Shown piece by piece: positions 25,552 through 56,319 of a stretch of 64,000 bases of DNA. Under the pieces are notes generated by a model that did not search any database, was not told the origin of the DNA, and saw only the letters and a list, made by a program, of their open reading frames with translations. The DNA comes from Eledone cirrhosa (Eukaryota). Each line of letters starts with the position of its first letter. Positions within the stretch are counted from its first letter, which is position 1. The translations under genes and the position numbers were made by a program. The stretch covers positions 136,400,001-136,464,000 of the forward strand of contig OZ024740.1 of assembly GCA_964016885.1 (NCBI GenBank), written 5' to 3'.

Positions 25552-25562
25552 ATGTATGTATG

Positions 25563-25593
<31 letters not shown>

Positions 25594-25649
25594 GTATGTA
25601 TGTATGTATGTATGTATGTATGTATGTATGTATGTATGTATGTATGTAT

Positions 25650-28600
25650 TCTCTTTCTCTTAATTTCGAGTATATTGTTTTGACCGGCCACCTTCCTGGT
25701 GGCAATGTTGTAAAAGAAAAGAAATTGTCATCCCTTGAATCGCAAGAATGTTTTGCAAATTTTGAAGGTGCCAGCTATCGCAGCCATTTGTAGACTATGA
25801 ATTAGGGAGCTGCGCTTTTTGTCCGCAAATCCAAGTTCAGTCATACTTTGGTCCAAGCGGGTTAGTATATAACCCGTAGCACCAATAATGATGGGTATGA
25901 AGCTAAAGGTGTATCTTGGATACAGGATTTGTAAACTCCTCATCAATGGTCCGTAGATGTCCTCCTTCTCCTGTATTTTTCTGACACCGTTTACATCAAG
26001 TGGGCAGCTGATCTCCACAACAGAACACGTTTTCAATGTGTGGTCCCAAACTACAATATCAGGCCGGTTGTGCTTTAATTTGGAGGCAGTTTTTAATTTC
26101 AGGTTCCACCAGTATTCCTTAGTGCCATCTGTCTCAATATATTCTTCCTCGTTTGTTGTTAATTTTGTTTTCCGAAGTGCGTTCCAGATGGTTCTAGCTA
26201 TCCCATCGTGTCTCATGGGGAGGTAGTAGCGAGATGACATTCTTTCGCAGCTGGCAACAATGTGGCTTACATCCTCGATCTTTGTTTTACATAGCCTACA
26301 TTTATTGTCAGCTGCGGGCCCTCCTCTTTTGTGCAGCAGATATTTGGTAGGGAGTTCTTGTTCCTGTATTGCATAGAGATATCCCTCAAGGTGTGATGTC
26401 ATAAACTTGTCGGAACTCCATGCCAGGCTTTTTGAGTGGTTTATCCCCTCTATGGTCTGTGTTTTACGCCTCAAGTATCCATGCACAACTTCTTCTGTAA
26501 ATTGGTCAATTTTTTAATCTTGTTTGAACATTGAATAGGATCTTCCGATTTCTCTGGGTGAGAGATTTATATCAGGCTTTCTTCCATATCTCTCCTCCAG
26601 ATCAGTCGCTATTCTAATGATATTTCTTTTTTCATGCTCATAAACCTGGGCAAGGTGGTTGCCAACCTTTTTCCTCTGTTGAAGGTGTTGCTTCAGTGTT
26701 ACTATCCGGGTCTCATATGTTGTTAATATTGATTTTAGACCCCGGCCACCTTCCTTGCGTGAGAAGTATAGCCTATCCACATCACCATTGATGTTAAAGT
26801 TCCCAGTAACACTGAGAAGTTTTCGAGTTCTAACATCCATCTCACTTAGTTCTTGCAATGACCAGTTCAGTAGGCCAAATGTTGGCGTTAGAATTGGCAC
26901 AGCATAAGTATTGTGGGCAATGTATTTGTTGTATGCTGACAGTTCTGATGACCATATTTTCTTTACTCTTCTGAGGTATTCAGTTCTGGTTCTCTCCTTA
27001 TTTATGGGTCCATCATATCTGACATTCTCATCCTGTCCAAGATATCTGTAGTTGTCACCTGACTGCAGAGGTTGTATTGTCAGGCCGTTCATCTCTAGAT
27101 TTCTAGAGGAGGACACAGCTCTTCCACGTTTTACTGCCAAATATGCACACTTGGACTCACCAAATTTCATTTTGATGTCGGTTGAAAATTGTGTAATGAG
27201 GTCCAATTGTTTCTTGATGTCATTGATATTTGGCCCATACAACTTCAGGTCATCAACAAAGAAAAGATGGGAGATACTTCTGGGCCCACTTCTTTGTCCA
27301 CCTTGTTTCCTGAGTAGGTAAGATAGTGGATTCAGTGAAAGAACGAAGAGTAGCACTGACAAGCTATCACCCTGAAAGATGCCCTTCTGTTAATGTATCT
27401 TATCAGTCTTAACCTGCTCCTTCTCACCTCTAAGGATCAAATTGGTGTACCAGTTCTTGGTCAGGCGTTCAACAGCAGCTACCAATGGTTGTGGGACTTT
27501 AGCTAACTGTAAAGCCTTAATAATCCACCCATGAGGTACACTATCGAATGCTTTTTGATAGTCCAGCCACACGACAGTCATGTTTCTGCGATTCTTTGTT
27601 GTTTTTTCCTGAATCATTTTGTTAGTTAGTAGGTGATCTATGCAACCCCACACCTCCCTCTTTCCACCAGCTTGCTCAGGTGTTATGATGTTGTTGGTAG
27701 CACAGTGATCCTGTAAGAACAGGTTAAGGCACCCAGTATATAATTTATACATGATGTTTTGGCAGGCAATTGGGCGGTAATTTTTAGCAAGGGTGGTTTG
27801 GCTATTTTGGGGAATGAGGAGAGTAGTGGCAGTTGATAACCATCTGGGCAGTTCTTGTGTGCCCTTAATGGTTTCTGTAAACAGCCGTATGAGATCTTGC
27901 CGATAGAAAGTGAAATTCTTCAACCAGTATCCTGTAATGAGGTCTGGGCCTGGTGATTTCCTATTCGACATTTTCTGTAGAGCTGTTTCCAGTATTGATC
28001 CATCTATGTCATATTGTTTTGTCTGGACATGTTGGCAGTAGTCCTGTTCCAGTTCTTTTAGCCAATTAGCTTGTCTGTTGAATCCGTCATCCGTTTCCCA
28101 TACAGATCTCCAGTAGCTCTCAACCTGTTCTTTTGAAGGGGTGTCGTTTACAGGGATTGAGCTTTTGCCACCTAAGCTGCGATAAACTGATTTAGGATCT
28201 CTGGCAAACAATCTATTTAGCACTTGTTGTTTATGTGCTGTTGACTTATATTTTAGTCTTTCTGTTGTAGCTGTGAGTTGTTGTTTCAACTGGTGTAATT
28301 TGGAGTTCAAAGTTTTAAATTTTGTATCTCCAAATCGTCTCTCTAACTTTTTCTTTAGGTCTTCCTGGTGTCGTGTGAAGTTGCTCTCTATGTTGCATTT
28401 CATAACGACTGCGATGTGTGAGATACTTCGTCTCAGGGACAAAATTTTGGTTTTTAAATTTCGCATCCACGCTGGTTCAGGCTTTCTGTTTGTATCTTGA
28501 TTGCGTGGTTTTAGATGTGTGTTATATGATAGCAATGTGACATCTGAAACATATAACAAAACATTAAGCGTTTCAAATGTCGTTTCTACACCTTTAGATC

Positions 28601-29855
28601 GTATAGCCTTCAGATAATTGCCAGCTATTTCGTTCACCGCTTCCAATTCCAATTTAGTGGGTTCTTTACTGACTCTAGTGTTGTATGGTCTGTCACTCAC
28701 ATTAAGGCTGTGTATCTCTTGAAACATATCGTTCGATATCACTTGTAGGGTGCCCACAAGTTTTTGGTGCTCTGTTTGTTCAGTAGAGTCATGAATTTCA
28801 GCCTCGTTGTTGATGTGGTGACAATTACTACTAGAGTTAGCTGACCATTCTCGCTGTTCTTCAGTGGAATTGGGATGGATTTCAGCAAAATTGTTGGTGA
28901 GCTGTTCACTGTTAGATTTAGCTGGTCATTCTCTTTGTCTGTCAGTGGAGGTGGGGTGGTTGTCTACAAGGGCTGTATTTGTAGTATCACTCAATTCCGT
29001 TAGATGTATCAATTTACATCTAATGATACGTTTTGCCTGTTCATTTAGATGCTTTGGAGAAAAGTCTAATTCTGGGTGTTTGGAGTTCCATAGAGTTTTT
29101 AGCCTTTGCATAAAACCGAACTTTTGGGGTTCAGATTGTTTGTATGCTTCATATAAAACTTTGTTAAGCTCGTAGCTCCACTGTGTACAACGATTGTAGT
29201 TGCGATTTGGTTGAAGGAGACTTGTACTTTTTGCCATGATGAGTTCGTCTATTCACTAATATTTCGTATTTATTTTTCACAATAGTCGATAATCTTTTTT
29301 AAAAGTTACGACAAAGTTCTGTCAGAATCAAATTTAAAGTTATTCACAGCTTGGGTAATATTTCTTTTCAGTTAGTTTTTAATTCTACAACTGTGTTTTA
29401 AACGTTGTTCTTGAATCGTTTGAATCGAGAACAAAAAGAACCGTTACTTAGTATATTCCTTTATGAATGTAATATGATATAACAACGCTGTATTTATATG
29501 TTAAAGTTTATGTATCATTCATATAAATAGGTGTTCTACAACTTATTCACAGTTCAAACACTTATGTTTTTGTTTCTGAATCGAAAACGTTACTTGTATA
29601 TTTCTTTATAAGTGTAATATAACAACGTTGCATTTATATGTTAAAGTGTATGTATCGTTCATATATCATAAGTGTATGTATCGTTCATATAAATAGGTGT
29701 TTCACAACACACAGTTCAAACGCTTATGTAGAATTATTGTATGTAATCTTACCGCGTAATGTAGCTCAACTTTTTCCAATATATGGTATGTTTCCTTCAT
29801 GTAAGCCGTAATTACACGCGTCCGATTATCGGACACTGACCACAGCGGTCGCCAT
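25650..29855 (-). mobile_element. R4/Dong-like RLE-type non-LTR retrotransposon inserted in (ATGT)n
   Basis: A 4.2-kb insertion absent from other units, with (TATG)n on both sides. RT is followed by CCHC and a restriction-like endonuclease. Confidence 0.9.
25728..29237 (-). pseudogene. Single RT-RLE ORF (~1169 codons) with three in-frame stops
   Basis: ORF pieces starting at 29237, 28757, 27362 and 26486 share one frame. Motifs: NYRPIAC, LDYQKAFDSV, QGDSLS, HLFFVDDLKLY, CRLC..HIVASC, RHD, RPDIV..D..VEISCP..K. Confidence 0.9.
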
Positions 29856-30645
29856 TGTATGTATGTATGTATGTATGTATGTATGTATGTATGTATGTAT
29901 GTATGTATGTATGTTAGGGTGGTGAATTGGCAGAGTCGTTAGAACGTCGAATAAAAGTGTTTGTGATATTTGTCCCGGTGGTGGTCACCTTTGCCTTTCA
30001 TCAATTCGAAGTCGATAAATAAAGTACCAGTCTAGTACTGGGTTGGATTCTTCACCTATATCTCTTTCTCATTTCCTCTCTCTCACTTTCTAACTTTCTC
30101 TGTACTCGGGTGTAATATTCCCTGGTTACGCGTTCCTTGGTACAGATACCATCATAGGATATATTTTCATCTATCCCTTAGGTATCTGTAGTAGTCCTCC
30201 TCGGATATCGGTGAAACAGTTAGGCCATTGATAAAAATGTTGCTAGATTAGCTTGTAGTTTTTCCCCGCTTTACAATCATATATGAACATTTATCCTGTA
30301 AAGCCTGGTGTAGTCGAAGGGGCACCGTTGCGACATACGATGTGTTTGGGCATTGTAAATCTGGTGGAGCCCATCCCCTCTCCGGATCTAACACAACCGA
30401 TTTCCTCTAAAGAGAGAGAGAGGTAGGTATAAAGAGAAAGACATTTCAATATAAATAATCGACTCCAAAGGACGACAGTCAAAGTTGACATTGACGGGGT
30501 TTGAACTAAGAGAGCCGAAACAACACGAAATACAAGAGGGTTACTGAGTATATTACCTCCTTTACAATTTGCAAGGCCTACAAGTGAAGAGATAGGTCCA
30601 GTCAGTACATCGCTCGGAGAATCAAGGCGGTGCCACCTAAATATC

Positions 30646-31583
30646 TATAGCGAGATTACTGAGGTTGTATGAATGTAACAAAACGAGACATGGTTTGTGT
30701 GTATAATATTTAATTAACAATGGTAGATAGTATACTTGACATGTCAAAGATGAGGATGTTGTTAGAATGAAGCAAAGTTAGTAGTTACCGTCTTGATTGC
30801 CAGGCAAACGCGGCTGGCAGAGGACGCCTGGCTAAGGCCAGGCGCCTGTTGGCCAAATTAATGGCGGAGCCCAATGAGAGGCTCTTGACCTGGTGCCGAA
30901 AAGGCAAAGAGAGAAAGGAAGCTTAAAGTTGTTAGTTTTATAGGGCTCTGACCGGAAGTTGCAGAAAGGGTTCCACTTCCCGTCTAGATCCTAATCAAAA
31001 CAAGGGAGACAACCGCTACATAACCTCCCGCCAGAATTTTAGTGTATAAAAATCGAAATGAAAATATGTAGCAAGTTGGCGAGAATGTTGTAACAGGCAT
31101 GAAAATTACGACAAAAGAATGTTTGGAAAAATCAATGATAGATATCAAGGTAGCCAACCGCTCTTGGCCAGAGAACGACTGGACATCCATCTATCCATCA
31201 CCCAAAGATACAATGTAATAAAGTAAAAGTAATAGAAGAGCTCAAGGGTGTATAATGTAAAGGGTTGTTACCCGATGGCAATAATACCATTCTGAAGTTG
31301 GTAGAACAGGTCTTGGCGCTCTAATCTCAGGCTGGTGAGCTGCATGGTGCTTGGTAACAAAAGGGTCGTCCAGCAAGGATCACCAGCTATGGTCGAAGAT
31401 GTTACCACTTCAGGAATCAGGAGGCGAGAGAGAGATTTCGCGGTTAATCGCTCCTTTTATCTCTGTTGACCGGAAGTGACCACTAGGGAGTTTGGTCAAT
31501 CCCAAAGGGAAGCAACTCCACCTACTTCCTGTCTAGAGAACAGCGATTCGATTGTCGTGGCAGGGGAAGCAACTCTTACTACA
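30646..31583 (-). mobile_element. Solo LTR (probably Gypsy-type), 938 bp
   Basis: Unique insertion with TSD TATC (30642-45 and 31584-87). Minus-strand termini TGTAGTAAGA...TCTCGCTATA form an imperfect inverted repeat. TATAAAA near 30940 and ATTAAA near 30710 are in LTR order. Confidence 0.8.
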
Positions 31584-33006
31584 TATCTAACACTAATCAC
31601 ATCGTAGCTCCTTTTAAATGGTGTAAAGAACACACCTCCCTCCAACAGGTCTACTTTTTTGATACTGAAAGCAACTTTGTCCCGGCCATCTCGCACAAGT
31701 TTACGCATCTAATGGCAGTTTTTCTTTCTCCGCTCAAGATCGTTTGTACGTTTATCTATTGGTCATGATCTATTGTTTATTTTTCTACTAAAGATGATCG
31801 ATAGTATATTTTTCTTTTGACATGCTGGATTTAACGTTTTTTCCACTGGTCATCATCGATTGTAGCTTTTCCCACAGAAAATGATCGATTCTCCATTCTT
31901 TTGTTCGCCAACTTATGTACGAGCTTGTAATTCCTGGCGAAGCCCACAGCGTTCGTCTGTACACAACTGATTTCTTCCAGCGAAAGTGTGAGGGACAGTC
32001 TGAAAGATGGAAAAAAGTTTGGCATCGGCAACAATTGAACTAAAATTCGCTAAACGCCAAGACATTTCTGCGTTCTAACAACTATGCCAGTGTGGCGTCT
32101 AAATTTGTATATCGAATTCTACCTATATTTCTCAGCTTAATAAAATTATAGAAGTTGTCTATTTTGGTTAGTTTTAGCTGGGGGTTTTTTTCTATTGCAC
32201 TTTATAAGACTTTTCCATGCTTTTGTCACATTCCTTAAATTTTACATTTAACATATATATAATGCTTTCATAAAGTAATGAAAAATCAGATTTGATTCGT
32301 ATCCGAAATGTTTCAGTGTTGTCGTGCATTTGTATATATGTATGTATCTAACCCCTCGTGTATTGGTAGTGGTGTCATGACATACAGAATGTCGTGAGCA
32401 TTTCATACATGGCGGAGTCATGGGGTAGGAAATGTATTTTGTGTGTAAATGTTAAACAGTTACAAAGGGAGTTATGTATTAATATAAACAAACATAGATT
32501 GGGAGGGTTCGAAATCCATATATGATCGAGCAGGCTCTAAAGGTTTTCAGCCAATATACTAAAAATAACAGTAAAATCTCCTCCTAATAATTAGTAGTGG
32601 TACAGTAAATAATGTTTCCGGCCGCTTCTCGCTGCACAGCCCTCCGTGGGGACCTCTAGTATCCTTGCTCCCTACACTTCTGATTTCCACGATAAATTCA
32701 GAAAGACGGTGACCCGCTTGAGGTAGGAGCCCGTAGGGTGGGGTAGCTGCTGCAGCCGATGTCTCTGGTCATTTTCCGTGGTAATGCCTTTGCAGTTTTA
32801 CCTGCGGCTGAGGCACCGCTCAGACTGGGGTGTAGTGTCTGCCCCTCCCTTTAGTTGCATTAAATGTTTTGATTTTGTATACACTACCATCAATATAACT
32901 ACAACTAAATCTCATAGTTAGACAATAGCAATAACTGTAACGCCTAATACCTCAGAATTAAGCAGTCTGTGTTGCCTATGTACAATCTAATCTTCGATTC
33001 ATTTTA

Positions 33007-33146
33007 CCACCTCCTTAGAGGCGTGAAAAAATTGCGAAGAGCACCTTACAGGTGCCCTCCGCGGGGTATTGGGAATAGTTTTCAACTAGCAATAACCACG
33101 CCTCGGATAAACCTCATTGGCCATGGTACCGCCTCTGCGCAAAGCT
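33007..33146 (-). ncRNA. U4: U4 spliceosomal snRNA
   Basis: Near-identical copy. Confidence 0.95.
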
Positions 33147-33834
33147 GTCGGTAACCCATCACACCTGTTTATTTAAGGTAATATGAAAAATATTCATTCA
33201 CTGATTCGTCTTCGCAGTTTATAGTTTATAATTAATTCCTATCATTCATTTCCATTAATCTTAAAATTCAGCTACTTCTACTTTGTTATGTTTAATAATT
33301 GTTTCTACTGTTGGCACAAGGCCAGCAAATACACAGTGCATTACTGGTACTTTATTTTATCGACCCCGTAAGGATGAAAGGCAAAGTCAACCTCGGCGGC
33401 AAATAATAATCTCATAACAGAAATATACAGGCCCACATATTTTGTAAACAGAATAATAAATTAATTCGGTGTATCGTCTTTCTCAAGAATATTATTGACG
33501 TCACTACATAACTAATTTAATCCTTCGGTAATTGGTTGTTTTTGTTGTCCCTTATGGCCCTTCATTTCTGTTAGTTTTAGCTGGTTTCCTTTTCCTATTG
33601 CATTTTATAAGACTTTTCCATGGTTTTTTAATGATTTTTGTGACAACCTGCCTTAAATTTTAAAGTTAATTCATATATATTTTAATACTATTTTCATAAA
33701 ATAATGAAAAATCAGTCTTAAAAGATTTGCCATGAATTTGGAGTTAGGGGACCATACATACATAAATGTATGTATGTATGTATGTATGTATGTATGTATG
33801 TATGTATGTATGTATGTATGTATGTATGTATTAT

Positions 33835-34437
33835 GTCAGGTCACCAGTTAGTGCTACTGGTAACATGAATCCCAGTACAACCTGTCTCATGGTCGGGTCG
33901 TTGGCGACTAAACTGACAACCCCACCAAGGTTTCTTTGTGAGGACGGTGACTTTGGACATCCTGCAGGACTAAAAAAAAACCTGTCAAAGGGCAAAGGAC
34001 CTCTTAAGAGTCAATGGCCATCCAAAATCACCGGGAGAGATGACCCCTTAGCCTTTGTCAAGGCAGAATTCTAGGAGGAGGAAAACTCTGATATAACACC
34101 TGCAAACCTGATGGTATCCAATGATGTTGACTTGTTCTTCTTTTTGGTAAATATCATCTTAGTTAAAAGAGTGGGACTGGCTTTGTGCAGTGCCTTGCTC
34201 ACTATTAAAGCTTCACGGCACAGACATTGCTTTATATCTGGAGATCTCTCTGCACTTGTCACATGGTACAATGAGCCCAGCACTATGTGTCAATAATTGT
34301 CACAAGTGTAGTGTTTGTACCAGAGTTTTCAAGTCGCTGGCTGGACTAAAAAGCCACACTTGTTCAACGCATTGGTAGGGGTTCTCCTACATGGATATAA
34401 AGTAGTGGCCGTACTCGAAAACGAGTTGGCAGCCACC
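33835..34437 (+). mobile_element. RTE-derived non-autonomous element
   Basis: Copy flanked by (ATGT)n. Confidence 0.88.
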
Positions 34438-36735
34438 ATGCATGTATGTATGTATGTATGTATGTATGTATGTATGTATGTATGTATGTATGTATGTATG
34501 TATGTATGTATGTTAGGGTGGTGAATTGGCAGAGTCGTTAGAACGTCGAATAAAAGTGTTTGTGATATTTGTCCCGGTCGTGGTCACCTTTGCGTTTCAT
34601 CAATTCGAAGTCGATAAATAAAGTACCAGTCTAGTACTGGGTTGGATTCTTCACCTATATCTCTTTCTCATTTCCTCTCTCTCACTTTCTAACTTTCTCT
34701 GTACTCGGGTGTAATATTCCCTGGTTACGCGTTCCTTGGTACAGATACCATCATAGGATATGTTTTCATCTATCCCTTAGGTATCTGTAGCAGTCCTCCT
34801 CGGATATCGGTGAAACAGTTAGGCCATTGATAAATATGTTGCTAGATTAGCTTGTAGTTTTTCCCCGCTTTACAATCATATATGAACATTTATCCTGTAA
34901 AGCCTGGTGTAGTCGAAGGGGCACTGTTGCGACATACGATGTGTTTGGGCATTGTAAATCTGGTGGAGCCCATCCCCTCTCCGGATCTAACACAACCGAT
35001 TTCCTCTAAAGAGAGAAAGAGGTGGGTATAAAGAGAAAGACATTTCAATATGAATAATCGACTCCAAAGGACGACAGTCAAAGTTGACATTGACGAGGTT
35101 TGAACTAAGAGAGCCGAAACAACACGAAATACAAGAGGGTTACTGAGTATATTACCTCCTTTACAATTTGCAAGGCCTACAAGTGAAGAGATAGGTCCAG
35201 TCAGTACATCGCTCGGAGAATCAAGGCGGTGCCAACTAAATATCTAACACTAATCACATCGTAGCTCCTTTTAAATGGTGTAAAGAACACACCTCCCTCC
35301 AACAGGTCTACTTTTTTTGATACTGAAAGCAACTTTGTCCCGGCCATCTCGCACAAGTTTACGCATCTAATGGCAGTTTTTCTTTCTCCGCTCAAGATCG
35401 TTTGTACGTTTATCTATTGGACATGATCTATTGTTTATTTTTCTACTAAAGATGATCGATAGTATATTTTTCTTTTGACATGCTGGATTGAACGTTTTTT
35501 CCACTGGTCATCATCGATTGTATCTTTTCCCACAGAAAATGATCGATTCTCCATTCTTTTGTTCGCCAACTTATGTACGAGCTTGTAATTCCTGGCGAAG
35601 CCCACAGCGTTCGTCTGTACACAACTGATTTCTTCCAGCGAAAGTGAGAGGGACAGTCTGAAAGATGGAAAAAAGTTTGGCATCGGCGACAATTGAACTA
35701 AAATTCGCTAAACGCCAAGACATTTCTGCTTTCTACCAACTATGCCAGTGTGGCGTCTAAATTTGTATATCGAATTCTACCTATATTTCTCAGCTTAATA
35801 AAATTATAGAAGTTGTCTATTTTTGTATTTAAATACCAACCTCGTGTGAGGTTTGTAAAAATTGCGTCTAGCACCTTATAGGTGGCCCTTCATTTCTGTT
35901 AGTTTTAGCTGGGAGTTTTTTTCTATTGCACTTTATAAGACTTTTCCATGCTTTTGTCACATTCCTTAAATTTTACATTTAACATATATATAATGCTTTC
36001 ATAAAGTAATGAAAAATCAGATTTAATTCGTATCCGAAATGTTTCAGTGTTGTCGTGCATTTGTATATATGTATGTATCTAACCCCTCGTGTATTGGTAG
36101 TGGTGTCATGACATACAGAATGCCGTGAGCATTTCATACATGGCGGAGTCATGGGGTAGGAAATGTATTTTGTGTGTAAATGTTAAACAGTTACAAAGGG
36201 AGTTATGTATTAATATAAACAAACATAAATTGGGAGGGTTCGAAATCCATATATGATCGAGCAGGCTCTAAATGTTTTCAGCCAATATACTAAAAATAAC
36301 AGTAAAATCTCCCCCTAATTATTAGTAGTGGTACAGTAAATGTTTACGGCCGCTTCTCGCTGCACAACCCTCCGTGGGGACCTCTAGTTTCCTTGCTCCC
36401 TACACTTCTGATTTCCACGATAAATTCAGAAGGACGGTGACCCACTTGAGGAAGGAGCCCGTAGGGTGGGGTAGCTGCTACAGCCGATGTCTCTGGTCAT
36501 TCTCCGTGGTAATGCCTTTGCAATTTTACCTACGGTGAGGCACCGCTCAGACTGGGGTGTAGTGTCTGCCTCTCCCTTTAGTTGCATTAAATGTTTTGAT
36601 TCTGTATATCCACTACCATCAATATAACTACAACTAAATCTCATAGTTAGACAATAGCACTAACTGTAACGCCTAATACCTCAGAATTAAGCAGTCTGTG
36701 TTGCCTATGTACAATCTAATCTTTGATTCATTTTA

Positions 36736-40916: not shown

Positions 40917-40974
40917 GTAAAGGGGAGTAACTGTGCTGCAAAGCATGATTTGCAGCACAGTTACACCCCTTTAC
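40917..40974. repeat. 26-bp-arm palindrome (also 45959-46016, 56731-56788, 62475-62532)
   Basis: GTAAAGGGGAGTAACTGTGCTGCAAA-gcatga-TTTGCAGCACAGTTACACCCCTTTAC, one mismatch. Confidence 0.95.
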
Positions 40975-45547: not shown

Positions 45548-45687
45548 CTACCTCCTTAGAGGCGTGAAAAAATTGCGAAGAGCACCTTACAGGTGCCCTC
45601 CGCGGGGTATTGGGAATAGTTTTCAACTAGCAATAACCACGCCTCGGATAAACCTCATTGGCCATGGTGCCGCCTCTGCGCAAAGCT
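45548..45687 (-). ncRNA. U4: U4 spliceosomal snRNA (variant)
   Basis: Near-identical copy with GGCACCATGG in place of GGTACCATGG and a change in the terminal hairpin. Confidence 0.92.
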
Positions 45688-46551
45688 GTCGGTAACCCAT
45701 CACACCTGTTTATTTAAGGTAATATGAAAAATATTCATTCACTGATTCGTCTTCGCAGTTTATAGTTTATAATTAATTCCTATCATTCATTTCCATTAAT
45801 CTTAAAATTCAGCTACTTCTACTTTGTTATGTTTAATAATTGTTTCTACTGTTGGCACAAGGCCAGCAAATATTCCAGTGTATTACTGGTACTTTATTTT
45901 ATCGACCCCGTAAGGATGAAAGGCAAAGTTAACCTCGGAGGTATTTTGAACAGAGTCCGTAAAGGGGAGTAACTGTGCTGCAAAGCATGATTTGCAGCAC
46001 AGTTACACCCCTTTACATACTGTGTTACGTCCGACGCATTTGTTATGTTTAATAATTGTTTCTACTTTAGGCACAAGGCCAGCAAATACACAGTGCATTA
46101 CTGGTACTTTATTTTATCGACCACGTAAGTATGAAAGGCAAAGTCAACCTCGGCGGGAAATAATAATCTCATAACAGAAATATACAGGCCCACATATTTT
46201 GTAAACAGAATAATAAATTAATTCGGTGTATCGTCTTTCTCAAGAATATTATTGACGTCACTACATAACTAATTTAATCCTTCGATGATAGGTTGTTTTT
46301 GTTGTCCCTTATGGCCCTTTATTTCTGTTAGTTTTAGCTGGTTTCCTTTTCCTATTGCATTTTATAAGACTTTTCCATTGTTTTTTAATGATTTTTGTGA
46401 CAACCTGCCTTAAATTTTAAAGTTAATTCATATATATTTTAATACTATTTTCATAAAATAATGAAAAATCAGTCTTAAAAGATTTGCCATGTATTTGGAG
46501 TTAGGGGACCATACATACATAAATGTATGTATGTATGTATGTATGTATTAT

Positions 46552-48361
46552 GTCAGGTCACCAGTTGGTGCTACTGGTAACATGTATCCCAGTACAACCT
46601 GTCTCATAGTCGGGTCGTTGGCGACTAAACTGGCAACCCCACCAAGGTTTCTTGGTGAGGAGGGTGACTTTGGACATCCTGCAGGACTAAAAACAAAACC
46701 TGTCAAAGGGCAAAGGAGCTCTTAAGAGTCAATAGCCATCCAAAATCACCGGGAGAGATGACCCCTTAGCCTTTGTCAAGGCAGAATTCTAGGAGAAGGA
46801 AAACTCTGATATAACACCTGCAGCCCTCATGGTATCCAATGATGTTGACTTGTTCTTTTTGGTAAATATCATCTTGGTTAAGAGAGTGGGACTGGCTTTG
46901 TGCAGTGCCTTTGCTCACTATAAAAGCTTCATGGCACAGGCATTGCTTTATATCTGGAGATCTCTCTGAACTTGTCGTCACATGGTACCATGGGCCTAGC
47001 ACTGTGTCAATAATTGTCACAAGTGTAGTGTTAGTACCAGAGTTTTCAAGTCGCTGGCTGGACTAAAAAGTCACACTCGTTCAGCGTATCGGTAGGAGTT
47101 CTCCTACATGGATATAAAGTAGTGGCCGTACTCGAAAACGAGTTGGCAGCCACCACCATGTGTGTATATATGTATGCATGTGTATATGTGTGTATATATG
47201 TATGTGTGTATATGTATATGTTAGGTCATCAGTTGGTGCTATATTGCCCGTACATGTATTCAAAGTATGTATACATTTTTTTGGTGACACCTGCATTCAT
47301 TTTTACAATAAATCCTGTATGATAAGAGCTTATAAATTATTCAACTTAATTCTGTGTATGTTTAAGAAATAAACCCCATGACCCTTACAATATACAACAA
47401 TACAGGTACATTTACTGTTTTTCATGCTTTAATGAAGGACGGTGAATTGGCAGTATTGGTTGTACCTGTATGTATGTTTGTATGTATGTTTGTATGTTTG
47501 TGTGTGTGTATGTATGTATGTATGTATGTATGTATGTATGTATGTATGTATGTATGTATGTATGTATGTGTTTGTATGTGTGTTTATATATATATATATA
47601 TGTGCATGTGTGAGGTATGTATGTATGTATGTATGTATGTATGTATGTATGTATGTATGTATGTATGTATGTATGTATGCATGTATGTATGTATGTATGT
47701 ATGTATGTATGTATTTATGTATGTATGTATGTATGTATGTATGTATGTATGTATGTGTCAGGTCACCAGTTGGTGCTACTGGTAACATGTATCCCAGTAC
47801 AACCTGTCTCATGGTCGGGTCGTTGGCGACTAAACTGACAACCCCACCAAGGTTTCTTGGTGAGGACGGTGAATTTGGACATCCTGCAGGACTAAAAACA
47901 AAACCTGTCGAAGGGCAAAGGACCTCTTAAGAGTCAATGGCCATCCAAAATCACCGGGAGAGATGACCCCTTAGCCTTTGTCAAGGCAGAATTCTAGGAG
48001 AAGGAAAACTCTGATACAACACCTGCAACCCTGATGGTATCCAATGATGTTGACTTGTTCTTCTTTTTGGTAAATATCATCTTGGTTAAGAGAGTGGGAC
48101 TGGCTTTGTGCAATGCCTTTGCTCACTATAAAAGCTTCACGGCACAGACATTGCTTTATAACTGGAGATCTCTCTGCACTTGTCACATGGTACCATGGGC
48201 CCAGCACTATGTGTCAATAATTGTCACAAGTGTAGTGTTTGTACCAGAGTTTTCAAGTCGCTGGCTGGACTAAAAATTCACACTTGTTCAACGCATCAGT
48301 AGGGGTTCTCCTACATGGATATAAAGTAGTGGCCGTATTCGAAAACGAGTTGGCAGCCACC
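46552..48361 (+). mobile_element. Two RTE-derived non-autonomous elements (46552-47157 and 47757-48361)
   Basis: Same arrangement as unit 8. The second tail hosts the RTE LINE. Confidence 0.88.
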
Positions 48362-49163
48362 ATGTATGTATGTATGTATGTATGTATGTATGTATGTATG
48401 TATGTATGTATGTATGTATGTATGTATGCATGTAGGGAGCTTATAGATAGGACAACACACGCTGTCTCTTCGTGGGGTAAGTTTTTAATTAATTTTTGTA
48501 TTCTGAAACATCAAAATACAACAATTTGTTGGTTACTGGACTCGGGAATGTCACGACAGAAGTTTGTGGAAGTTACACAAATATTTTAGTATATTTTAGC
48601 AGAGCAATCCTTATTTATATTTTACATTTACTTACATCTCAATATAACATGGCTAGAATTCAAATTTTGCTAAGAGAAGAAAACGGTCAAATGAACTAGA
48701 TACATCTCACTGTCCACACCACCACAATAACGTCTACACTCTCTCCCCACCATCACATGTCATTACCATACCATACCCTATCGAGACTAAAGTCATCGAC
48801 CTGTTGTCAAACCCTCTACTCTCTGATGAATGTATATATATATATGTGTGTGTATGTATATGTGTGTATATACATCACTCATATGTGTGTGTATGTATAT
48901 GTGTGTATATACATCACTCAGTCAAACAACCAGATTTCAACCCCAACATCTACAACAACAACAACACCGGCACTAATGTTTACAGCAACAACAGCTTCAG
49001 AATGAACTGAAATGAACATTTACAACAATTACAACAACAACAACAACAGCGGCATCAAAACATAAAAAAAGGAAGGGAAAAGAAAAAAGAAAAGGGAAGG
49101 GGAAAAAAAAAAAAAAAAAAAAAAGGGAGAAAAAAAGAAAGGAAAAGAAAAACTCAAAATAAC

Positions 49164-49204
<41 letters not shown>

Positions 49205-49628
49205 CAGAACAACAACATCAACTGCCACCACCGCCACCGCCGTCGCCATCACCATCACCAGCGACCTTAAGAACAACTTTAATAATAATTTTTCTGCTTT
49301 TGGCACGGATCCAGCGACTGGCCAGCGCATCACTGGTACTCTCTTTTGTTGACTCCGTGGAGAGCCATAACTCTATGCTGTAAAGCAATTATAGTAATAC
49401 TGGACTGTAATACGATCGGCTTCAACTATACAAACTCTTGAAAGTCAACAGTTGACATAATCTGGTAATCTTGTATCAGTAATGACGGTAATATATATAT
49501 ATATATGTGTGTGTGCGTGTAAGTGAGTAGAGTAGCGTGTGTGTGTGTTTGTTGTGTGTGTGAGTGTTGCTGTGTGCACGCATATGTATGCGTGTGTGTG
49601 TATGTCGTACGTATAAGTGTCAATAAGT

Positions 49629-49662
<34 letters not shown>

Positions 49663-49963
49663 GCGGGGACATAGAAATAATCGGGCTGGATGCCCGATCG
49701 CGCAGTTAAACCACTGGGAGTGAAGAACCCCTAGCCCATGTCAGGGTATTCTTCTAGGAGAAGGCATCTCAGGAAACTGGGTTAACTCCGATATAAAACC
49801 TGCGGCTCAGTAGTTACCGATGATGTTGATCTTTTCTTCTTTTCGGGTTATAGCTACTGTCGCTCAGAGAGTGGGATTGGTTCAGTGCACAGTCTTTCCT
49901 CACTTTAAAAATATTCGTCACGCACAGGCATTGCACGAGTGCATTAATAATTATTAATAGTGT

Positions 49964-49998
<35 letters not shown>

Positions 49999-50003
49999 TA
50001 TTA

Positions 50004-50036
<33 letters not shown>

Positions 50037-50044
50037 CCAATTCA

Positions 50045-53000
50045 ATGATGTTCCAGAACAATGTAAACGAGATAATTGCCAATTTGGGTTCTGGAACAAA
50101 AGAGATCATTGGCAATAAGGGCAGGGGCCCCAAGTTATCACAACCTGGGCCCGCCCGTCATCGTGCCATTGTAATAGAGCCAAACAGGGCATTTAGTCTT
50201 GGCTGCTGGAACGTACGGACGCTGCTTGACGGGGATTCTTTGGAGCGTCCTGAACGAAGGACCGCTCTTGTTGCGAAGGAGCTTCGACGTTACGATCTTG
50301 ACATCGTGGCTTTGTCTGAGACGAGGTTAGCTGGAGATGGTCATCTTGCGGAATTTTGTGGAGAATATACATTCTTCTGGAAAGGAAGAGATGAAGGAAC
50401 CAGAAGAGAGGCTGGGGTGGGATTTGCTGTTAAGACTGTACTGGTGAATAAATTAGAAGAATTCCCAGTGGGGATTAGTGAGCGTCTTATGTCCATGAGA
50501 GTTCCGCTGGACAAGGGAAGATATGCTACCCTGGTGAGTGTGTATGCTCCAACTATGAATTCTGTCGATGAAGAAAAACTGTCCTTTTACCATGCCTTGA
50601 AAGGTGTTTTAAGAAATATCCCTCAGGCAGACAAAGTCATCGTGCTTGGTGACTTTAATGCTAGAGTGGGTAGGGATTTTAACACATGGAATGTAATCGG
50701 AAGGCATGGGGTGGGAAAGTGTAACAGCAATGGTATGCTCTTGCTGCAGATGTGTGAGGAGCTAGATCTGTGTGTTACCAACACCATGTTCCAACAAAAG
50801 AACAAATTCAAGACCACATGGATGCATCCTGCATCTAAGGAATGGCATCTTTTGGACTACGTCCTAGTCAGGATGCGTGACAGACAGGATGTGCAGTGTG
50901 TTCGTGTTCTTCGTGGAGCTGAGTGCTGGACGGACCACCGCCTGGTGCGCGCAAAAGTGAATCTAATCACCAAACGTAAAATCCGGGCTCCTGGTGTTAC
51001 CCTGCCCAAAAGATTGAATGCTGCTCGTCTTAAGGATAAAAATGTGAAGAGGACATTGGAAGAAGAGATGCAGGCTGCAGATCTTGGTGAGGATTGGCCG
51101 ACCCTTAAAAAGTCGGTTTATGATGTAGGCAGGCGTGTTCTGGGATTGGTGCAGAGAAAACATCAGGACTGGTTTAATGAGAATGATGTACATATAGAAG
51201 ACTTGTTGGCTGATAAGAGGCGTGCTCTGTCACGCTACTTGACGGCAAAACCACAGGAGAGGAATACGTTGCATGAGGAGCTCAGGGATGTAAAATCACG
51301 TGTTAGGCGGAGTCTTTCTCAGATGAAGGATCAGTGGTGGAGTGAGAAGGCTGGTGAGATACAAACTGCGTCTGATTGCAATAACACAAAGCTGTTGTAC
51401 AGTCTCTTGCGTGAGGTTTATGGACCGTCTTCTTCTCTGGTGACACCGATTCGCAGCAGGGATGGCAAAGAACTTCTTCGTGACTCACAGGGAATTCTAC
51501 GAAGGTGGCGAGAGCACTTTGATGATCTTTTGAATCAGCCGTCTGTCGTCAGTGAAGATTTCCTCAATCTCATTCCGGAAAGTCCTGTGAAAGTAGCTCT
51601 CGCAGAACCTCCGACACTTGTGGAGGTTGCAGTGGCTATTTCGAAGCTGAACAGTGGAAGATCTCCAGGTATGGATGGCATACATGCTGAGCTCCTACAA
51701 TATGGTGGTGAGAGACTCCTGCAACATCTTCACTCTCTGTTTGGAAGGATATGGGCTAATGAATCCGTGCCTGAGGACTGGAGAGATGCAGTAATGGTGG
51801 TCTTGTACAAGGGAAAGGGTAACAGGAATGATTGTGGGAACTACAGAGGTATATCATTGCTTTCTGTCGTGGGGAAAGTTTTATGTAGGGTGCTTCTGGA
51901 CCGTCTGCTGACACACATTGCAGATTGTGTCCTTCCTGAAAGTCAATCTGGTTTTCGTGTTGGACGCGGCACTACTGATATGATCTTCTCAGCTAGACAG
52001 CTCCAGGAGAAGTGCATTGAACAGGGCTTGGATCTGTATCAGGTTTTTGTCGATCTGACAAAGGCTTTCGATACTGTCAACAGAGATGCATTATGGAAGA
52101 TTCTCCAGAAACTTGGTTGCCCTGATAAGTTCCTTGCTTTAGTTAGGTCTTTCCATGACGACATGAGGGCTTGGGTTAATGTCGGAGGTAACATGTCGGA
52201 GCCTATCTCAGTAAAAAATGGAGTGAAACAGGGGGATATTCCAGCACCGACCCTGTTTGCCATATACTTTGCAATGGTTTTCTGTGTTGCATTCAGGAAT
52301 TGCGAGCATGGTGTTTACATCCGATATCGAACCTCAGGCAGCATATTTAACATCAGGCGCTTTGCTGCGAAGACAAAGGTATTTACATCGGTCATAAGAG
52401 ACCTCTTGTATGCAGATGATTGCGATCTTGTAGCGCACACAGAGAGTGATATGCAGCACATTTTGAATGTATTTTCTGACGCTTGCACTGCCCTGGGTTT
52501 GACTGTCAGTCTCAAGAAAACCGTCGTCATGTACCAACCTGCACCTGGTAGGCAGTACACTGAACCAAACATCTATGTGTATGGCAAACGACTTGGAGTG
52601 GTTGATCAGTTTGTCTACCTGGGAAGCACTGTCAATCGATACGGCAACCTTGACAGTGAAATCTCACTTAGGATTAGGAAAGCAAGTGATGCTTTCGGAA
52701 AGCTAGAAAGGCGACTCTGGGGTCGGCGAGACATATGCAGGAGGACAAAGGTAAGGGTGTACAGGGCATGTGTACTCTCTTGTCTTCTTTATGCCTGCGA
52801 GACCTGGGTCACATATCGACGCCACCTTAGGCAATTGGAGCGTTTCCATCAGATGTGTCTCAGACGGATACATGGCGTTCGCTGGAGGGACCACATCAGT
52901 GATGTCGAGATTTTGGAAAGCTCTATGTGTGACAGTATAGAAGCTCTTGTGCTTAAGCAGCGACTCCGTTGGAGTGGTCACCTTGCCAGGATGAAGGATT

Positions 53001-53590
53001 CTAGAATACCAAAACAACTCTTCTATGGAGAGTTGGTTAAAGGAAAACGACCGCCACATAAACCAAAAAAGAGGTATAAGGATTCCTTGAAGGCCTCTCT
53101 GAAAGACGCTAACATCTCTGCTGATACATGGGAAAATATTGCTGCTGATCGTAATAAATGGAGAAAGACTGTATATGAGGGAAAAGTTGCCTTTGAGGCA
53201 TCTCGAATCGCACACGAGAAAGTAAAGCGGGACGTGAGGAAGGGTATTGCTGTTGCACTTCCAGACGGCGAGGGTCCTCCTATGTTTCTGACATGCAGCG
53301 TCTGTGCGAGACTCTGCCTAAGCAAAGCTGGACTCGAAAGTCATCTTCGCAGTCATAAAGTAAGACCAGTGGTTGACTACCAGGCTGCTGTTGGAGATGC
53401 TACTCATCATGCTTGCCAAACATGTGGTAGAGAATGTAAATCAGCAGGAGGACTCAAGCGACATGCAAAAGTACACGAACTCCAACCACAGCCGACTATT
53501 CCCAGTAAATGTTTTGGTTGCCGACTCTGTGCAAGACATTTTAGATCATTGGCTGGGCTAAAAAGCCACATTCGATCGCAGCACTGTTAG
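50045..53590 (+). CDS. RTE LINE ORF: APE endonuclease + reverse transcriptase + three C2H2 zinc fingers, 1181 aa, uninterrupted
   Basis: WNVRTL, LSETRL, LGDFNARVG, LLDYV, TDHRLV; NYRGISLL, FVDLTKAFD, GVKQG, LLYADD; LRWSGHLARM, PKQLFYGEL; three C-x2-C-x12-H-x3/4-H fingers. Confidence 0.96.
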   Translation: MMFQNNVNEIIANLGSGTKEIIGNKGRGPKLSQPGPARHRAIVIEPNRAFSLGCWNVRTLLDGDSLERPERRTALVAKELRRYDLDIVALSETRLAGDGHLAEFCGEYTFFWKGRDEGTRREAGVGFAVKTVLVNKLEEFPVGISERLMSMRVPLDKGRYATLVSVYAPTMNSVDEEKLSFYHALKGVLRNIPQADKVIVLGDFNARVGRDFNTWNVIGRHGVGKCNSNGMLLLQMCEELDLCVTNTMFQQKNKFKTTWMHPASKEWHLLDYVLVRMRDRQDVQCVRVLRGAECWTDHRLVRAKVNLITKRKIRAPGVTLPKRLNAARLKDKNVKRTLEEEMQAADLGEDWPTLKKSVYDVGRRVLGLVQRKHQDWFNENDVHIEDLLADKRRALSRYLTAKPQERNTLHEELRDVKSRVRRSLSQMKDQWWSEKAGEIQTASDCNNTKLLYSLLREVYGPSSSLVTPIRSRDGKELLRDSQGILRRWREHFDDLLNQPSVVSEDFLNLIPESPVKVALAEPPTLVEVAVAISKLNSGRSPGMDGIHAELLQYGGERLLQHLHSLFGRIWANESVPEDWRDAVMVVLYKGKGNRNDCGNYRGISLLSVVGKVLCRVLLDRLLTHIADCVLPESQSGFRVGRGTTDMIFSARQLQEKCIEQGLDLYQVFVDLTKAFDTVNRDALWKILQKLGCPDKFLALVRSFHDDMRAWVNVGGNMSEPISVKNGVKQGDIPAPTLFAIYFAMVFCVAFRNCEHGVYIRYRTSGSIFNIRRFAAKTKVFTSVIRDLLYADDCDLVAHTESDMQHILNVFSDACTALGLTVSLKKTVVMYQPAPGRQYTEPNIYVYGKRLGVVDQFVYLGSTVNRYGNLDSEISLRIRKASDAFGKLERRLWGRRDICRRTKVRVYRACVLSCLLYACETWVTYRRHLRQLERFHQMCLRRIHGVRWRDHISDVEILESSMCDSIEALVLKQRLRWSGHLARMKDSRIPKQLFYGELVKGKRPPHKPKKRYKDSLKASLKDANISADTWENIAADRNKWRKTVYEGKVAFEASRIAHEKVKRDVRKGIAVALPDGEGPPMFLTCSVCARLCLSKAGLESHLRSHKVRPVVDYQAAVGDATHHACQTCGRECKSAGGLKRHAKVHELQPQPTIPSKCFGCRLCARHFRSLAGLKSHIRSQHC

Positions 53591-53597
53591 TTGCTAT

Positions 53598-53598
53598 C

Positions 53599-53636
<38 letters not shown>

Positions 53637-53715
53637 GCTTATGTGCGTGCGTGTGTGTGTATATATATATGAATATGTATATTATTGTTGTTGTTGTCGT
53701 TATTAATATTATTGC

Positions 53716-53761
<46 letters not shown>

Positions 53762-53879
53762 GTTATTAATGTATGTGTGTATATATGTGTGAGTGTATGT
53801 GTATGTATGTGTGTGTGTATATATGTATGTATGTGTATGTATGTGTGTGTATATATGTGTATGTATATATATATGTATA

Positions 53880-53912
<33 letters not shown>

Positions 53913-53947
53913 CTTTTCCCTTTTTTTTTTTTTTTTTTTTTTTTTTC

Positions 53948-54013
<66 letters not shown>
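53598..54013. repeat. Compound microsatellite (GT, TAT, TA, poly-T) within the RTE 3'UTR
   Basis: Lies between the stop codon and the conserved terminal GGCCATACTCG...GGCAGCCATC. Confidence 0.9.
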
Positions 54014-54015
<2 letters not shown>

Positions 54016-56319
54016 TGTGCAATGGCCATACTCGATAACGAGGGGGCAGCCATCATGTATGTATGTATGTATGTATGTATGTATGTATGTTAGGGTGGTG
54101 AATTGGCAGAATCGTTAGAACGTTGAATAAAAGTGTTTGTGATATTTGTCCCGGTCGTGGTCACCTTTGCCTTTCATCAATTCGAAGTCGATAAATAAAG
54201 TACCAGTCTAGTACTGGGTTGGATTCTTCACCTATATCTCTTTCTCATTTCCTCTCTCTCACTTTCTAACTTTCTCTGTACCCGGGTGTATTATTCCCTG
54301 GTTACGCGTTCCTTGGTACAGATACCATCATAGGATATATTTTCATCTATCCCTTAGGTATCTGTAGCAGTCCTCCTCGGATATCGGTGAAACAGTTAGG
54401 CCATTGATAAAAATGTTGCTAGATTAGCTTGTAGTTTTTCCCCGCTTTACAATGGTATATGAACATTTATCCTGTAAAGCCTGGTGTAGTCGAAGGGGCA
54501 CCGTTGCCACATACGATGTGTTTGGGCATTATAAATCTGGTGGAGCCCATCCCCTCTCCGGATCTAACACAACCGATTTCCTCTAAAGAGAGAAAGAGGT
54601 TGGTATAAAGAGAAAGACATTTCAATATAAATAATCGACTCCAAAGGACGACAGTCAAAGTTGACATCGACGGGGTTTGAACTAAGAGAGCCAAAACAAC
54701 ACGAAATACAAGAGGGTTACTGAGTATATTACCTCCTTTACAATTTGCAAGGCCTACAAGTGAAGAGATAGGTCCAGTCAGTACATCGCTCGGAGAATCA
54801 AGGCGGTGCCACCTAAATATCTAACACTAATCACATCGTAGCTCCTTTTAAATGGTGTAAAGAACACACCTCCCTCCAACAGGTCTATTTTTTTTGATAC
54901 TGAAAGCAACTTTGTACCGGCCATCTCGCACAAGTTTACGCATCTAATGGCAGTTTTTCTTTCTACGCTCAAGATCGTTTGTACGTTTATCTATTGGACA
55001 TGATCTATTGTTTATTTTTCTACTAAAGATGATCGATAGTATATTTTTCTTTTGACATGCTGGATTGAACGTTTTTTCCACTGGTCATCATCGATTGTAT
55101 CTTTTCCCACAGAAAATGATCGATTCTCCATTCTTTTGTTCGCCAACTTATGTACGAGCTTGTAATTCCTGGCGAAGCCCACAGCGTTCGTCTGTACACA
55201 ACTGATTTCTTCCAGCGAAAGTGAGAGGGACAGTCTGAAAGATGGAAAAAAGTTTGGCATCGGCGACAATTGAACTAAAATTCGCTAAACGCCAAGACAT
55301 TTCTGCTTTCTACCAACTATGCCAGTGTGGCGTCTAAATTTGTATATCGAATTCTACCTATATTTCTCAGATTAATAAAATTATAGAAGTTGTCTATTTT
55401 TGTATTTAAATACCAACCTCGTGTGAGGTTTGTAAAAATTGCGTCTAGCACCTTATAGGTGGCCCTTCATTTCTGTTAGTTTTAGGTGGGGGTTTTTTTC
55501 TATTGCACTTTATAAGACTTTTCCATGCTTTTGTCACATTCCTTAAATTTTACATTTAACATATATATAATGCTTTCATAAAGTAATGAAAAATCAGATT
55601 TAATTCGTATCCGAAATGTTTCAGTGTTGTCGTGCATTTGTATATATGTATGTATCTAACCCCTCGTGTATTGGTAGTGGTGTCATGACATACAGAATGT
55701 CGTGAGCATTTCATACATGGCGGAGTCATGGGGTAGGAAATGTATTTTGTGTGTAAATGTTAAACAGTTACAAAGGGAGTTATGTATTAATATAAACAAA
55801 CATAGATTGGGAGGGTTCGAAATCCATATATGATCGAGCAGGCTCTAAATGTTTTCAGCCAATATACTAAAAATAACAGTAAAATCTCCCCCTAATTATT
55901 AGTAGTGGTACAGTAAATGTTTCCGGCCGCTTCTCGCTGCACAACCCTCCGTGGGGACCTCTAGTTTCCTTGCTCCCTACACTTCTGATTTCCACGATAA
56001 ATTCAGAAGGACGGTGACCCACTTGAGGAAGGGGCCCGTAGGGTGGGGTAGCTGCTACAGCCGATGTCTCTAGTCATTCTCCGTGGTAATGCCTTTGTAA
56101 TTTTACCTACGGTGAGGCACCGCTCAGACTGGGGTGTAGTGTCTGCCTCTCCCTTTAGTTGCATTAAATGTTTTGATTCTGTATATCCACTACCATCAAT
56201 ATAACTACAACTAAATCTCATAGTTAGACAATAGCACTAACTGTAACGCCTAATACCTCAGAATTAAGAATTATGCAGTCTGTGTTGCCTATATATAATC
56301 TAATCTTTGATTCATTTTA

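What the first reader, a model, noticed from the sequence alone, without database searches (positions are those of the whole stretch)
25552..54090. A self-renewing (ATGT)n landing pad used by three retroelement families
Seen: the RLE LINE (antisense, 25650-29855), the RTE LINE (sense, 48435-54054) and extra non-autonomous copies all sit in the (ATGT)n tract at the same unit position, the tail of the non-autonomous element. None hits U4. The RTE and its derivative both end in (ATGT)n and so recreate the target. Inference: a microsatellite-targeting community with APE and RLE enzymes converging on one repeat, using the snRNA array spacer as a safe harbour.
Basis: partly seen in the sequence, partly recalled or inferred. 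Interest (0 to 1): 0.72.

Follow-up and report, generated by a model that had tools for sequence, protein, structure and literature searches.

The report
Two retrotransposon clades share ATGT repeats
In this animal genome (likely an octopod), two unrelated jumping genes and a small passenger sit in ATGT-type repeats genome-wide, facing opposite ways, likely because their enzymes nick opposite strands; the U4 RNA gene array holding them is rich in that repeat and shows no sign of being specially targeted.

Summary
The window is a U4 snRNA tandem array. A Dong/R4-like RLE LINE (25650-29855, minus) and an intact RTE-like APE LINE (48435-54054, plus) sit in the same (ATGT)n tract of different units. 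Genome-wide, the Dong-like element is (ACAT)n-specific (75 of 77 junctions; background 0.72%). The RTE-like LINE and a 605-bp passenger use the opposite polarity and a looser target: (ATGT)n or (AT)n. The (ATGT)n behind them is mainly duplicated target, not an encoded tail: 10 of 29 RTE copies end in (AT)n, and 3' flanks mirror 5' flanks (rho 0.84). The array is not favoured: it is about 21-fold richer in target, and about 0.3 copies of each LINE are expected there. The extra passenger copies are a few events copied by unit duplication, and an LTR-element piece inserted outside any ATGT tract. One array cassette has an identical copy on another contig, likely exported by retrotransposition. 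The scan noted Dong/RTE sharing of this repeat before on other DNA of this genome (three notes). Verdict: new variant of known microsatellite targeting.

The parts
25650..29855 (-). Full-length Dong/R4-like RLE LINE. One reading frame (25728-29237) broken by three in-frame stops: N-terminal three-helix domain, RT, CCHC knuckle, RLE-like C-terminus
   Evidence: ends fixed by other copies; intact 1169-aa sister in L223, 96% identical over 511 aa; fold closest to R2 proteins
25552..25649 (+). (ATGT)n left part of the split target tract
29856..29914 (+). (ATGT)n right part of the split target tract, followed by the SINE-like head seen in empty units
48435..54054 (+). Full-length RTE-like APE LINE with intact ORF (about 50048-53590, 1180 aa: APE, RT, C-terminal C2H2-like fingers), long 5' UTR and microsatellite-rich 3' UTR ending GCAGCCATC
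   Evidence: 5' end shared by 30 of 30 fetched copies identical over 366 bp; 3' end in 29 of 30
48362..48434 (+). (ATGT)n target tract 5' of the RTE
54055..54090 (+). (ATGT)9 3' of the RTE; mainly target and its duplication
24951..25551 (+). Resident (type A) 605-bp non-autonomous element of the unit; also at 10103, 13787, 17488, 21253, 33835, 37588, 42641, 59177
47757..48361 (+). Type A non-autonomous element next to the RTE. Middle about 68% like the RTE 5' UTR; last 32 nt match the RTE 3' end at 27 positions and share a CTCG-loop-CGAG hairpin
41510..42418 (+). Type B non-autonomous copy plus 240-bp spacer (extra cassette)
46552..47460 (+). Type B cassette, duplicate of the same event
57549..58969 (+). 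Type B + spacer + young 5'-truncated type D copy (58559-58969); matched by a copy on contig C17 (L208) with no difference in the two element parts
30646..31583 (+). LTR-element-derived insertion (about 375-bp LTR, part of the internal region, then other sequence) with a 4-bp TATC duplication; not in ATGT
33010..33146 (-). U4 snRNA gene
   Evidence: 121 bits
36739..36875 (-). U4 snRNA gene
40509..40645 (-). U4 snRNA gene
45551..45687 (-). U4 snRNA gene
7374..64000 (.). U4 tandem array, basic unit about 3.7 kb, 17 U4 matches, running on to about 89.8 kb in window numbering

Best explanation
Two unrelated LINE families, one Dong/R4-like and one RTE-like, sit in the same ATGT/ACAT microsatellite across the genome with opposite polarity, likely because each endonuclease nicks the other strand. 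Shown: the Dong-like element is ACAT-specific on its sense strand. The RTE-like LINE and a 605-bp passenger use (ATGT)n preferentially but also (AT)n. Inferred: both insert by target-primed reverse transcription. The RLE would nick the ATGT strand and the APE the ACAT/AT strand, probably at the same TpA step (uncertain by 1-2 nt because of microhomology with the RNA ends, ...GAGA(A/T)A and ...(CAU)1-3). Each insertion splits a tract and duplicates roughly 10-20 bp of it, so the target is kept and renewed by target-site duplication rather than by an encoded tail. The passenger is likely moved by this RTE or a close relative through the shared 3' hairpin. The U4 array is a passive host: an old passenger insertion left two tracts per unit, unit duplication spread them and later insertions, and the high target density caught one copy of each LINE.
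For: Dong-like: at least 2 ACAT units within 20 nt at 28 of 29 3' ends, 28 of 29 full-length 5' ends and 19 of 19 truncated 5' ends; opposite strand 0 of 77. Background 0.72% of 20-mers in 59 stretches, 590 kb. RTE: AT/GT-type repeat at 23 of 30 5' ends and 29 of 29 3' ends; passenger 23 of 25 and 24 of 25; background 6.1%; opposite-strand ATGT 0 of 109. RTE 3' ends: ATGT 18, AT 10, against a background ATGT share of 8% (p 2e-13). Dong is stricter than RTE plus passenger (28:1 vs 28:24, Fisher p 3e-5). 3' flank mirrors own 5' flank: RTE rho 0.84, n=14; own match 21 nt vs 13 permuted, 0 of 3000; passenger rho 0.48, 17 vs 10 nt, 0 of 2000. Irregular duplications are visible in L160, L154 and L126. 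Passenger copies with identical sequence sit in both target types (L144 ATGT vs L146, L148 AT; L129 vs L131, L135). Neighbours across a tract: Dong vs RTE/passenger opposite 20 times, same once. Array: 3.55% perfect ATGT vs 0.17%; expected 0.33 Dong and 0.37 RTE copies, observed 1 each.
Against: No enzyme was assayed; nick sites are inferred from junctions. Copies were the best-identity hits (30 kept of 40 scored, from 273-4264 candidates), so they are the youngest and not a random sample. Background stretches were taken at round coordinates and hold only 50 ATGT tracts. 7 of 30 RTE 5' flanks fall below the repeat threshold, two of them rearranged (L093, L103). Six of 20 RTE copies with apparent 5' inversions were left out of the pair test. 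Matches in pure repeats cannot give a true duplication length. The passenger's mobiliser is not shown. Clade names rest on domain layout and recalled motifs, with no tree including named Dong or RTE references. Copy numbers behind the array expectation are lower bounds. Post-insertion repeat expansion or purifying selection elsewhere could add to the pattern.
Confidence: 0.8

Rival explanations
1. RNA-tail guidance for the RTE. Transcripts read through into the donor's (AUGU)n or (AU)n flank, anneal to nicked repeats and prime there, so a weakly specific endonuclease suffices and the element does carry its own target.
For: 3' microsatellites of RTEs are proposed to steer cleavage or priming (PMC6007223, passages). 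This model also predicts matching 5' and 3' composition. All 29 RTE and 25 passenger 3' flanks start with AT.
Against: Sequence-identical passenger copies sit in both AT and ATGT targets. In L126 the duplication starts right at the element end with no added tail. The only visibly element-linked tail is 1-2 extra CAT/CAC units (L066, L073, L078, L133).
Confidence: 0.12
2. One reading: RTE and passenger tails build (ATGT)n pads that then attract further insertions, with the snRNA spacer used as a safe harbour.
For: Both LINEs in the array are in the tract behind the passenger. Sampled junctions have a guild neighbour more often than background tracts (41 of 167, after setting aside 3 internal rearrangements, vs 7 of 68; p 0.013). 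RTE tails create microsatellites in moths (PMC2887409, passages).
Against: The tail is not fixed. Dong sits at passenger heads (7 of 29) as often as at tails (6 of 29), and 21 of 29 3' flanks have no detected guild neighbour. Only two tracts exist per basic unit, so a shared position is weak evidence. Array load fits target density.
Confidence: 0.05
3. Passive accumulation: insertion is loosely specific, and copies survive or are seen mainly in repeats.
For: Passive accumulation near CA repeats was proposed for Drosophila Waldo-A/B (PMC3812793, passage).
Against: Very young copies (100% identical over 346-366 bp) already show it. Strict strand polarity and a fixed junction phase (23 of 29 Dong 3' ends read WA-ACAT) are not expected from survival bias.
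Confidence: 0.03

Closest known systems
Dong (R4 clade; Bombyx Dong, DongAg, snail DongBg, ostracod Dong)
   Same: Single ORF with RT and RLE-like C-terminus, no N-terminal zinc finger, small N-terminal helical domain, microsatellite-specific insertion (PMC7998251 and PMC3812793 passages).
   Different: Target is (ACAT)n, not (TAA)n, which PMC7998251 gives as the target in most insects, molluscs and cnidarians.
RTE-clade LINEs, including Octopus vulgaris RTE-2_OV
   Same: Single APE-RT ORF, C2H2 finger and microsatellite-rich 3' UTR as described for RTE-2_OV (PMC9115989 passages).
   Different: RTE insertion is described as not sequence-specific (PMC2887409) or as a T-stretch signature (PMC6007223); here it is strongly tied to (ATGT)n/(AT)n. 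Not RTE-2_OV itself: ORF 1180 vs 1109 aa, and 5 of its published primers have 3-7 mismatches.
Waldo (ACAY)n and Mino (AC)n, APE-type elements (R1 clade by the cited paper's title)
   Same: APE elements that target ACAY repeats, a set that includes ACAT (PMC3812793 passage).
   Different: Insect elements of another clade. Here an RTE-like element and an RLE element share the repeat on opposite strands.
Bipartite non-autonomous RTE derivatives (Bov-A, RTESINE, WALLSI3)
   Same: Short ORF-less element with an RTE 5' UTR-like middle and an RTE-like 3' end (PMC5786205 passages).
   Different: Only about 68% like this RTE, with about 200 nt of 5' and about 150 nt of internal sequence of unknown origin; shares the microsatellite target.
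Utopia (U2 snRNA-specific)
   Same: Non-LTR elements found in snRNA genes (PMC4640811 abstract and passages).
   Different: Utopia cuts the gene itself. These elements never hit U4 and are dispersed genome-wide.

Membership tests
Dong/R4 clade | Single ORF with RT, CCHC knuckle and C-terminal restriction-like endonuclease | tested here: met
   Pfam RT and zf-RVT; conserved C-x2-C...H-x4-C, RHD and HNRPD..VVE motifs in a 17-protein alignment (motif meaning recalled); model best matches R2 structures, E 4e-34
Dong/R4 clade | No N-terminal zinc finger | tested here: met
   None in Pfam or in the alignment
Dong/R4 clade | Divergent SANT/Myb-like N-terminal domain | tested here: inconclusive
   Three helices at 22-74, pLDDT 80-92 over most blocks; fold searches of the isolated domain gave no significant match
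Dong/R4 clade | RT phylogeny with named R4/Dong elements | not testable with these tools
   No named reference among 76 homologues; best named hit is an Argonauta hians hypothetical protein, 52%
Dong sensu stricto | (TAA)n target | tested here: not met
   75 of 77 junctions in (ACAT)n
RTE clade | Single ORF with N-terminal APE and RT, no ORF1 | tested here: met
RTE clade | Short simple-repeat 3' end without poly(A) | tested here: met
   Ends in (CAT)1-3, then target
RTE clade | RT phylogeny with named RTE elements | not testable with these tools
   Top 120 homologues carry no clade name; assignment rests on layout and recalled motifs
RTE-2_OV family | Sequence identity with RTE-2_OV | tested here: not met
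   5 published primers, 3-7 mismatches each; ORF length differs
Bipartite non-autonomous RTE | 5' UTR-derived part plus shared 3' end, no ORF | tested here: met
   About 68% over 220 nt; 27 of 32 nt at the 3' end
snRNA-targeting LINEs (Utopia type) | Insertion at a fixed site in the snRNA gene | tested here: not met
   No U4 interrupted; copies dispersed

The most novel reading that the evidence does not exclude
A zinc-finger-bearing RTE lineage has become a true microsatellite-specific retrotransposon, and it converged with a retargeted Dong lineage on the same TpA step of (ATGT)n from opposite strands. This gives a natural pair of unrelated nickases for one repeat. The U4 array also acts as a transcribed donor that exports passenger cassettes together with array DNA.
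Probability: 0.45. Interest if true: 0.68.

Novelty: new variant of a known kind. Interest (0 to 1): 0.5.

Why it matters
RTE elements are usually described as not sequence-specific, and Dong as (TAA)n-specific. An intact, very young RTE-like element and an intact Dong-like sister that both read one four-letter repeat, on opposite strands, make target choice by APE versus RLE enzymes directly testable with one oligonucleotide substrate. It also bears on where active LINEs can land in cephalopod genomes, where brain LINE activity is debated, and on mapping such insertions, since junctions fall in repeats that short-read tools handle badly (inference). The snRNA-array angle adds little.

Tried and rejected
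Array as a preferred target: rejected, expected about 0.3-0.4 copies vs 1 observed for each LINE. Encoded (ATGT)n tail: rejected. Extra passenger copies as independent insertions: rejected for type B. The group statistics printed with the tree are invalid, because array loci L207-L215 were included twice under the 'dispersed' label; only the topology was used, and one search dropped them. Identity with RTE-2_OV: rejected. Ribozyme or other RNA family in the RTE 5' UTR or passenger: only repeat-driven miRNA noise below gathering scores. PDB sequence search with the RLE fragment gave only an unrelated repeat hit. Myb assignment by fold search: no significant match. The RTE 3' hairpin alone is not better than shuffles (z -0.7), unlike the passenger's (z -2.7 and -3.4). 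Expression: no RNA holder listed; contigs laid on the RTE 5' end gave no flank information. The insertion at 30646 first looked like a solo LTR but is an LTR plus internal sequence plus another piece. Literature: nine answered searches surfaced no paper on an (ACAT)n Dong or an (ATGT)n RTE. Repbase Reports and subscription papers such as Kojima and Fujiwara 2004 are not searchable, and no supplements were read, so such a record may exist.
Full report
Setting. The window lies on contig C1 of a 3.0-Gb animal genome. It is likely an octopod: this is inferred from the best named protein hit (Argonauta hians) and from recalled SINE-like motifs. From 7374 onward it is a tandem array with a basic unit of about 3.7 kb, each unit holding one U4 snRNA gene on the minus strand (11 Rfam matches in the window). 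Neighbouring stretches show 17 U4 matches up to about 89.8 kb in window numbering, the main U4 cluster among the 42 matches scored. Each basic unit carries a 605-bp ORF-less element flanked by two (ATGT)n tracts, then a SINE-like head.

Observation. The RLE LINE at 25650-29855 (minus) and the APE LINE at 48435-54054 (plus) are real, full-length, and both split the tract behind the 605-bp element. The RLE copy has one frame with three stops. One of 20 fetched sisters has an intact 1169-aa ORF, 96% identical over 511 aa. Its model resembles R2 proteins best, and it has no N-terminal zinc finger, which fits R4/Dong. The APE element has an intact 1180-aa ORF with APE, RT and sub-threshold C2H2 matches. 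Its odd 1.2-kb 5' region is genuine: 30 of 30 fetched copies are identical over the first 366 bp.

Genome-wide test. I fetched the best-matching copies for each end. For the Dong-like element, at least two ACAT units lie within 20 nt on its sense strand at 28 of 29 3' ends, 28 of 29 full-length 5' ends and 19 of 19 truncated 5' ends, never in the other polarity. In 59 arbitrary 10-kb stretches 0.72% of 20-mers qualify. For the RTE-like element, AT/GT-type repeat flanks 23 of 30 5' ends and 29 of 29 3' ends (one of 30 lacked its 3' end). For the passenger the counts are 23 and 24 of 25 (five array copies dropped), against 6.1% background. These two accept (AT)n as well: ATGT versus pure AT is 18:10 for RTE and 10:14 for the passenger at the 3' end. 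Since (AT)n is about 11 times commoner, both still prefer ATGT (p 2e-13 and 1e-5), but less strictly than Dong (p 3e-5). Limits: these are the youngest copies, and the background holds only 50 tracts.

Tail or target. The element-linked end is ...GCAGCCATC with up to two extra CAT units, always followed by AT. What follows mirrors the copy's own 5' flank: G content correlates (RTE rho 0.84, 14 of 20 copies, six with apparent 5' inversions left out; passenger rho 0.48, n=25), and own flanks match longer than shuffled pairs (0 of 3000 and 0 of 2000 permutations). Irregular duplications such as ATGTATGTATGAGTTTATGT (L160) are visible on both sides. Identical passenger copies occupy both target types. 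So the pad is renewed by target-site duplication rather than by an encoded tail. Guidance by read-through RNA tails remains a minor rival.

Polarity and mechanism. Across a shared tract, Dong faces RTE or passenger in opposite orientation 20 times and the same once. Under target-primed reverse transcription (established knowledge), the primer comes from the strand antisense to the element. The RLE would then nick the ATGT strand (23 of 29 junctions read WA-ACAT) and the APE the ACAT/AT strand, both probably at the TpA step, within 1-2 nt. This is inference; nothing was assayed. The passenger shares 27 of its last 32 nt and a hairpin with the RTE but only about 68% in the 5' UTR-like part, so it likely comes from a related RTE and uses the same kind of machinery. 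A second Dong-like family (about 49% amino-acid identity) also ends on ACAT in the fetched flanks.

The array. Perfect (ATGT)3+ covers 3.55% of the array against 0.17% of background. Using candidate counts as lower-bound copy numbers, 0.33 Dong and 0.37 RTE copies are expected and one of each is seen. Dong abuts passenger heads (7 of 29) as often as RTE or passenger tails (6 of 29). Extra passenger copies reduce to a few events: type B with a 240-bp spacer (41510, 46552, 57549 and two beyond the window) is one clade, and type D (58559) is young, 1 difference in 411 from the dispersed majority. Several copies look recombinant. An LTR-element piece at 30646-31583 inserted outside ATGT. The safe-harbour idea has no support beyond the fact that U4 is spared.

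Export from the array. The 240-bp spacer has one full-length match outside the array, on C17. That locus holds a 5'-truncated type B, the spacer and type D, with 0 differences in 449 and 411 nt from the unit at 57549-58969. It ends exactly at D's 3' end and sits in an AT/ATGT tract with a candidate 15-bp duplication. Because it matches one unit among more diverse array copies and has no upstream homology, I read it as a retrotransposed read-through from the array. The reverse direction is not excluded, and 15 bp is weak evidence in such repeats.

Known systems. Dong targets (TAA)n and Waldo (ACAY)n (PMC3812793, PMC7998251; passages). RTE sites are described as not sequence-specific (PMC2887409, passages) or as a T-stretch signature (PMC6007223, passages). 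Bipartite RTE derivatives are known (PMC5786205, passages). Active RTE and Dong families are reported in octopus, with no target given in what I read (PMC9115989, passages; PMC13282606, parts 1-2 of 3). PMC4640811 was seen as passages and PMC13295347 as abstract and outline only. Nine answered searches surfaced no report of this target (see Tried and rejected). Three earlier notes of this scan describe the same Dong/RTE sharing on other DNA of this genome; they are unreviewed, were read after my own tests, and agree.

Verdict. A real genome-wide case of two LINE clades sharing one microsatellite in opposite polarity: a new variant of known microsatellite targeting. Interest 0.5.

Noticed in passing
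L208:965-2233 (contig C17) vs window 57549-58969: Cassette of two passenger copies plus a 240-bp spacer matching one array unit with no difference in the element parts; likely exported from the U4 array by read-through retrotransposition.
   Followed up: partly
L153 (RTE copy on C2), 5' inversion junction: Five TTAGGG units plus TTAG sit at the junction of an inverted 5' piece, starting from a GGGGTT in the element; looks like telomerase-type addition during insertion.
   Followed up: no
L153, L154, L158, L165 (and by eye L161, L166): 5' inversions in at least 4 of 20 RTE copies, suggesting frequent twin priming.
   Followed up: partly
L136, L035, L084, L158, L032 flanks: A second Dong-like family, about 49% amino-acid identity in the C-terminal part, ending ...CCAGAAGA on (ACAT)n in the same polarity.
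   Followed up: partly
window 53250-53590: C-terminal C2H2-like fingers in the RTE ORF, shared by many homologues at about 50% identity; a candidate target-reading module.
   Followed up: no
window 30646-31583: Piece of a short LTR element family (about 375-bp LTRs about 1.75 kb apart in other copies, 4-bp duplications, 1744 candidates) fused to other sequence.
   Followed up: partly
window 771-5510 (minus) and 5766-7366: Degraded two-ORF LINE (ORF1-like, APE, RT with frameshifts) and a 79% similar piece, just left of the array start.
   Followed up: no
window numbering 63162-89833 (L177-L179): Higher-order repeat of about 10.5 kb: two alternating unit types with two and three passenger copies, repeated about two and a half times.
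   Followed up: partly
L095, L098, L110, L219, L231 flanks: Variant 3' ends related to the RTE end, including one reading ...TTTGCGGCCATC, also on ATGT tracts; more RTE-type families may share the target.
   Followed up: no
L174-L175 (about 16-19 kb left of the window start): Two further, more diverged U4 copies (90-92%) outside the array.
   Followed up: no
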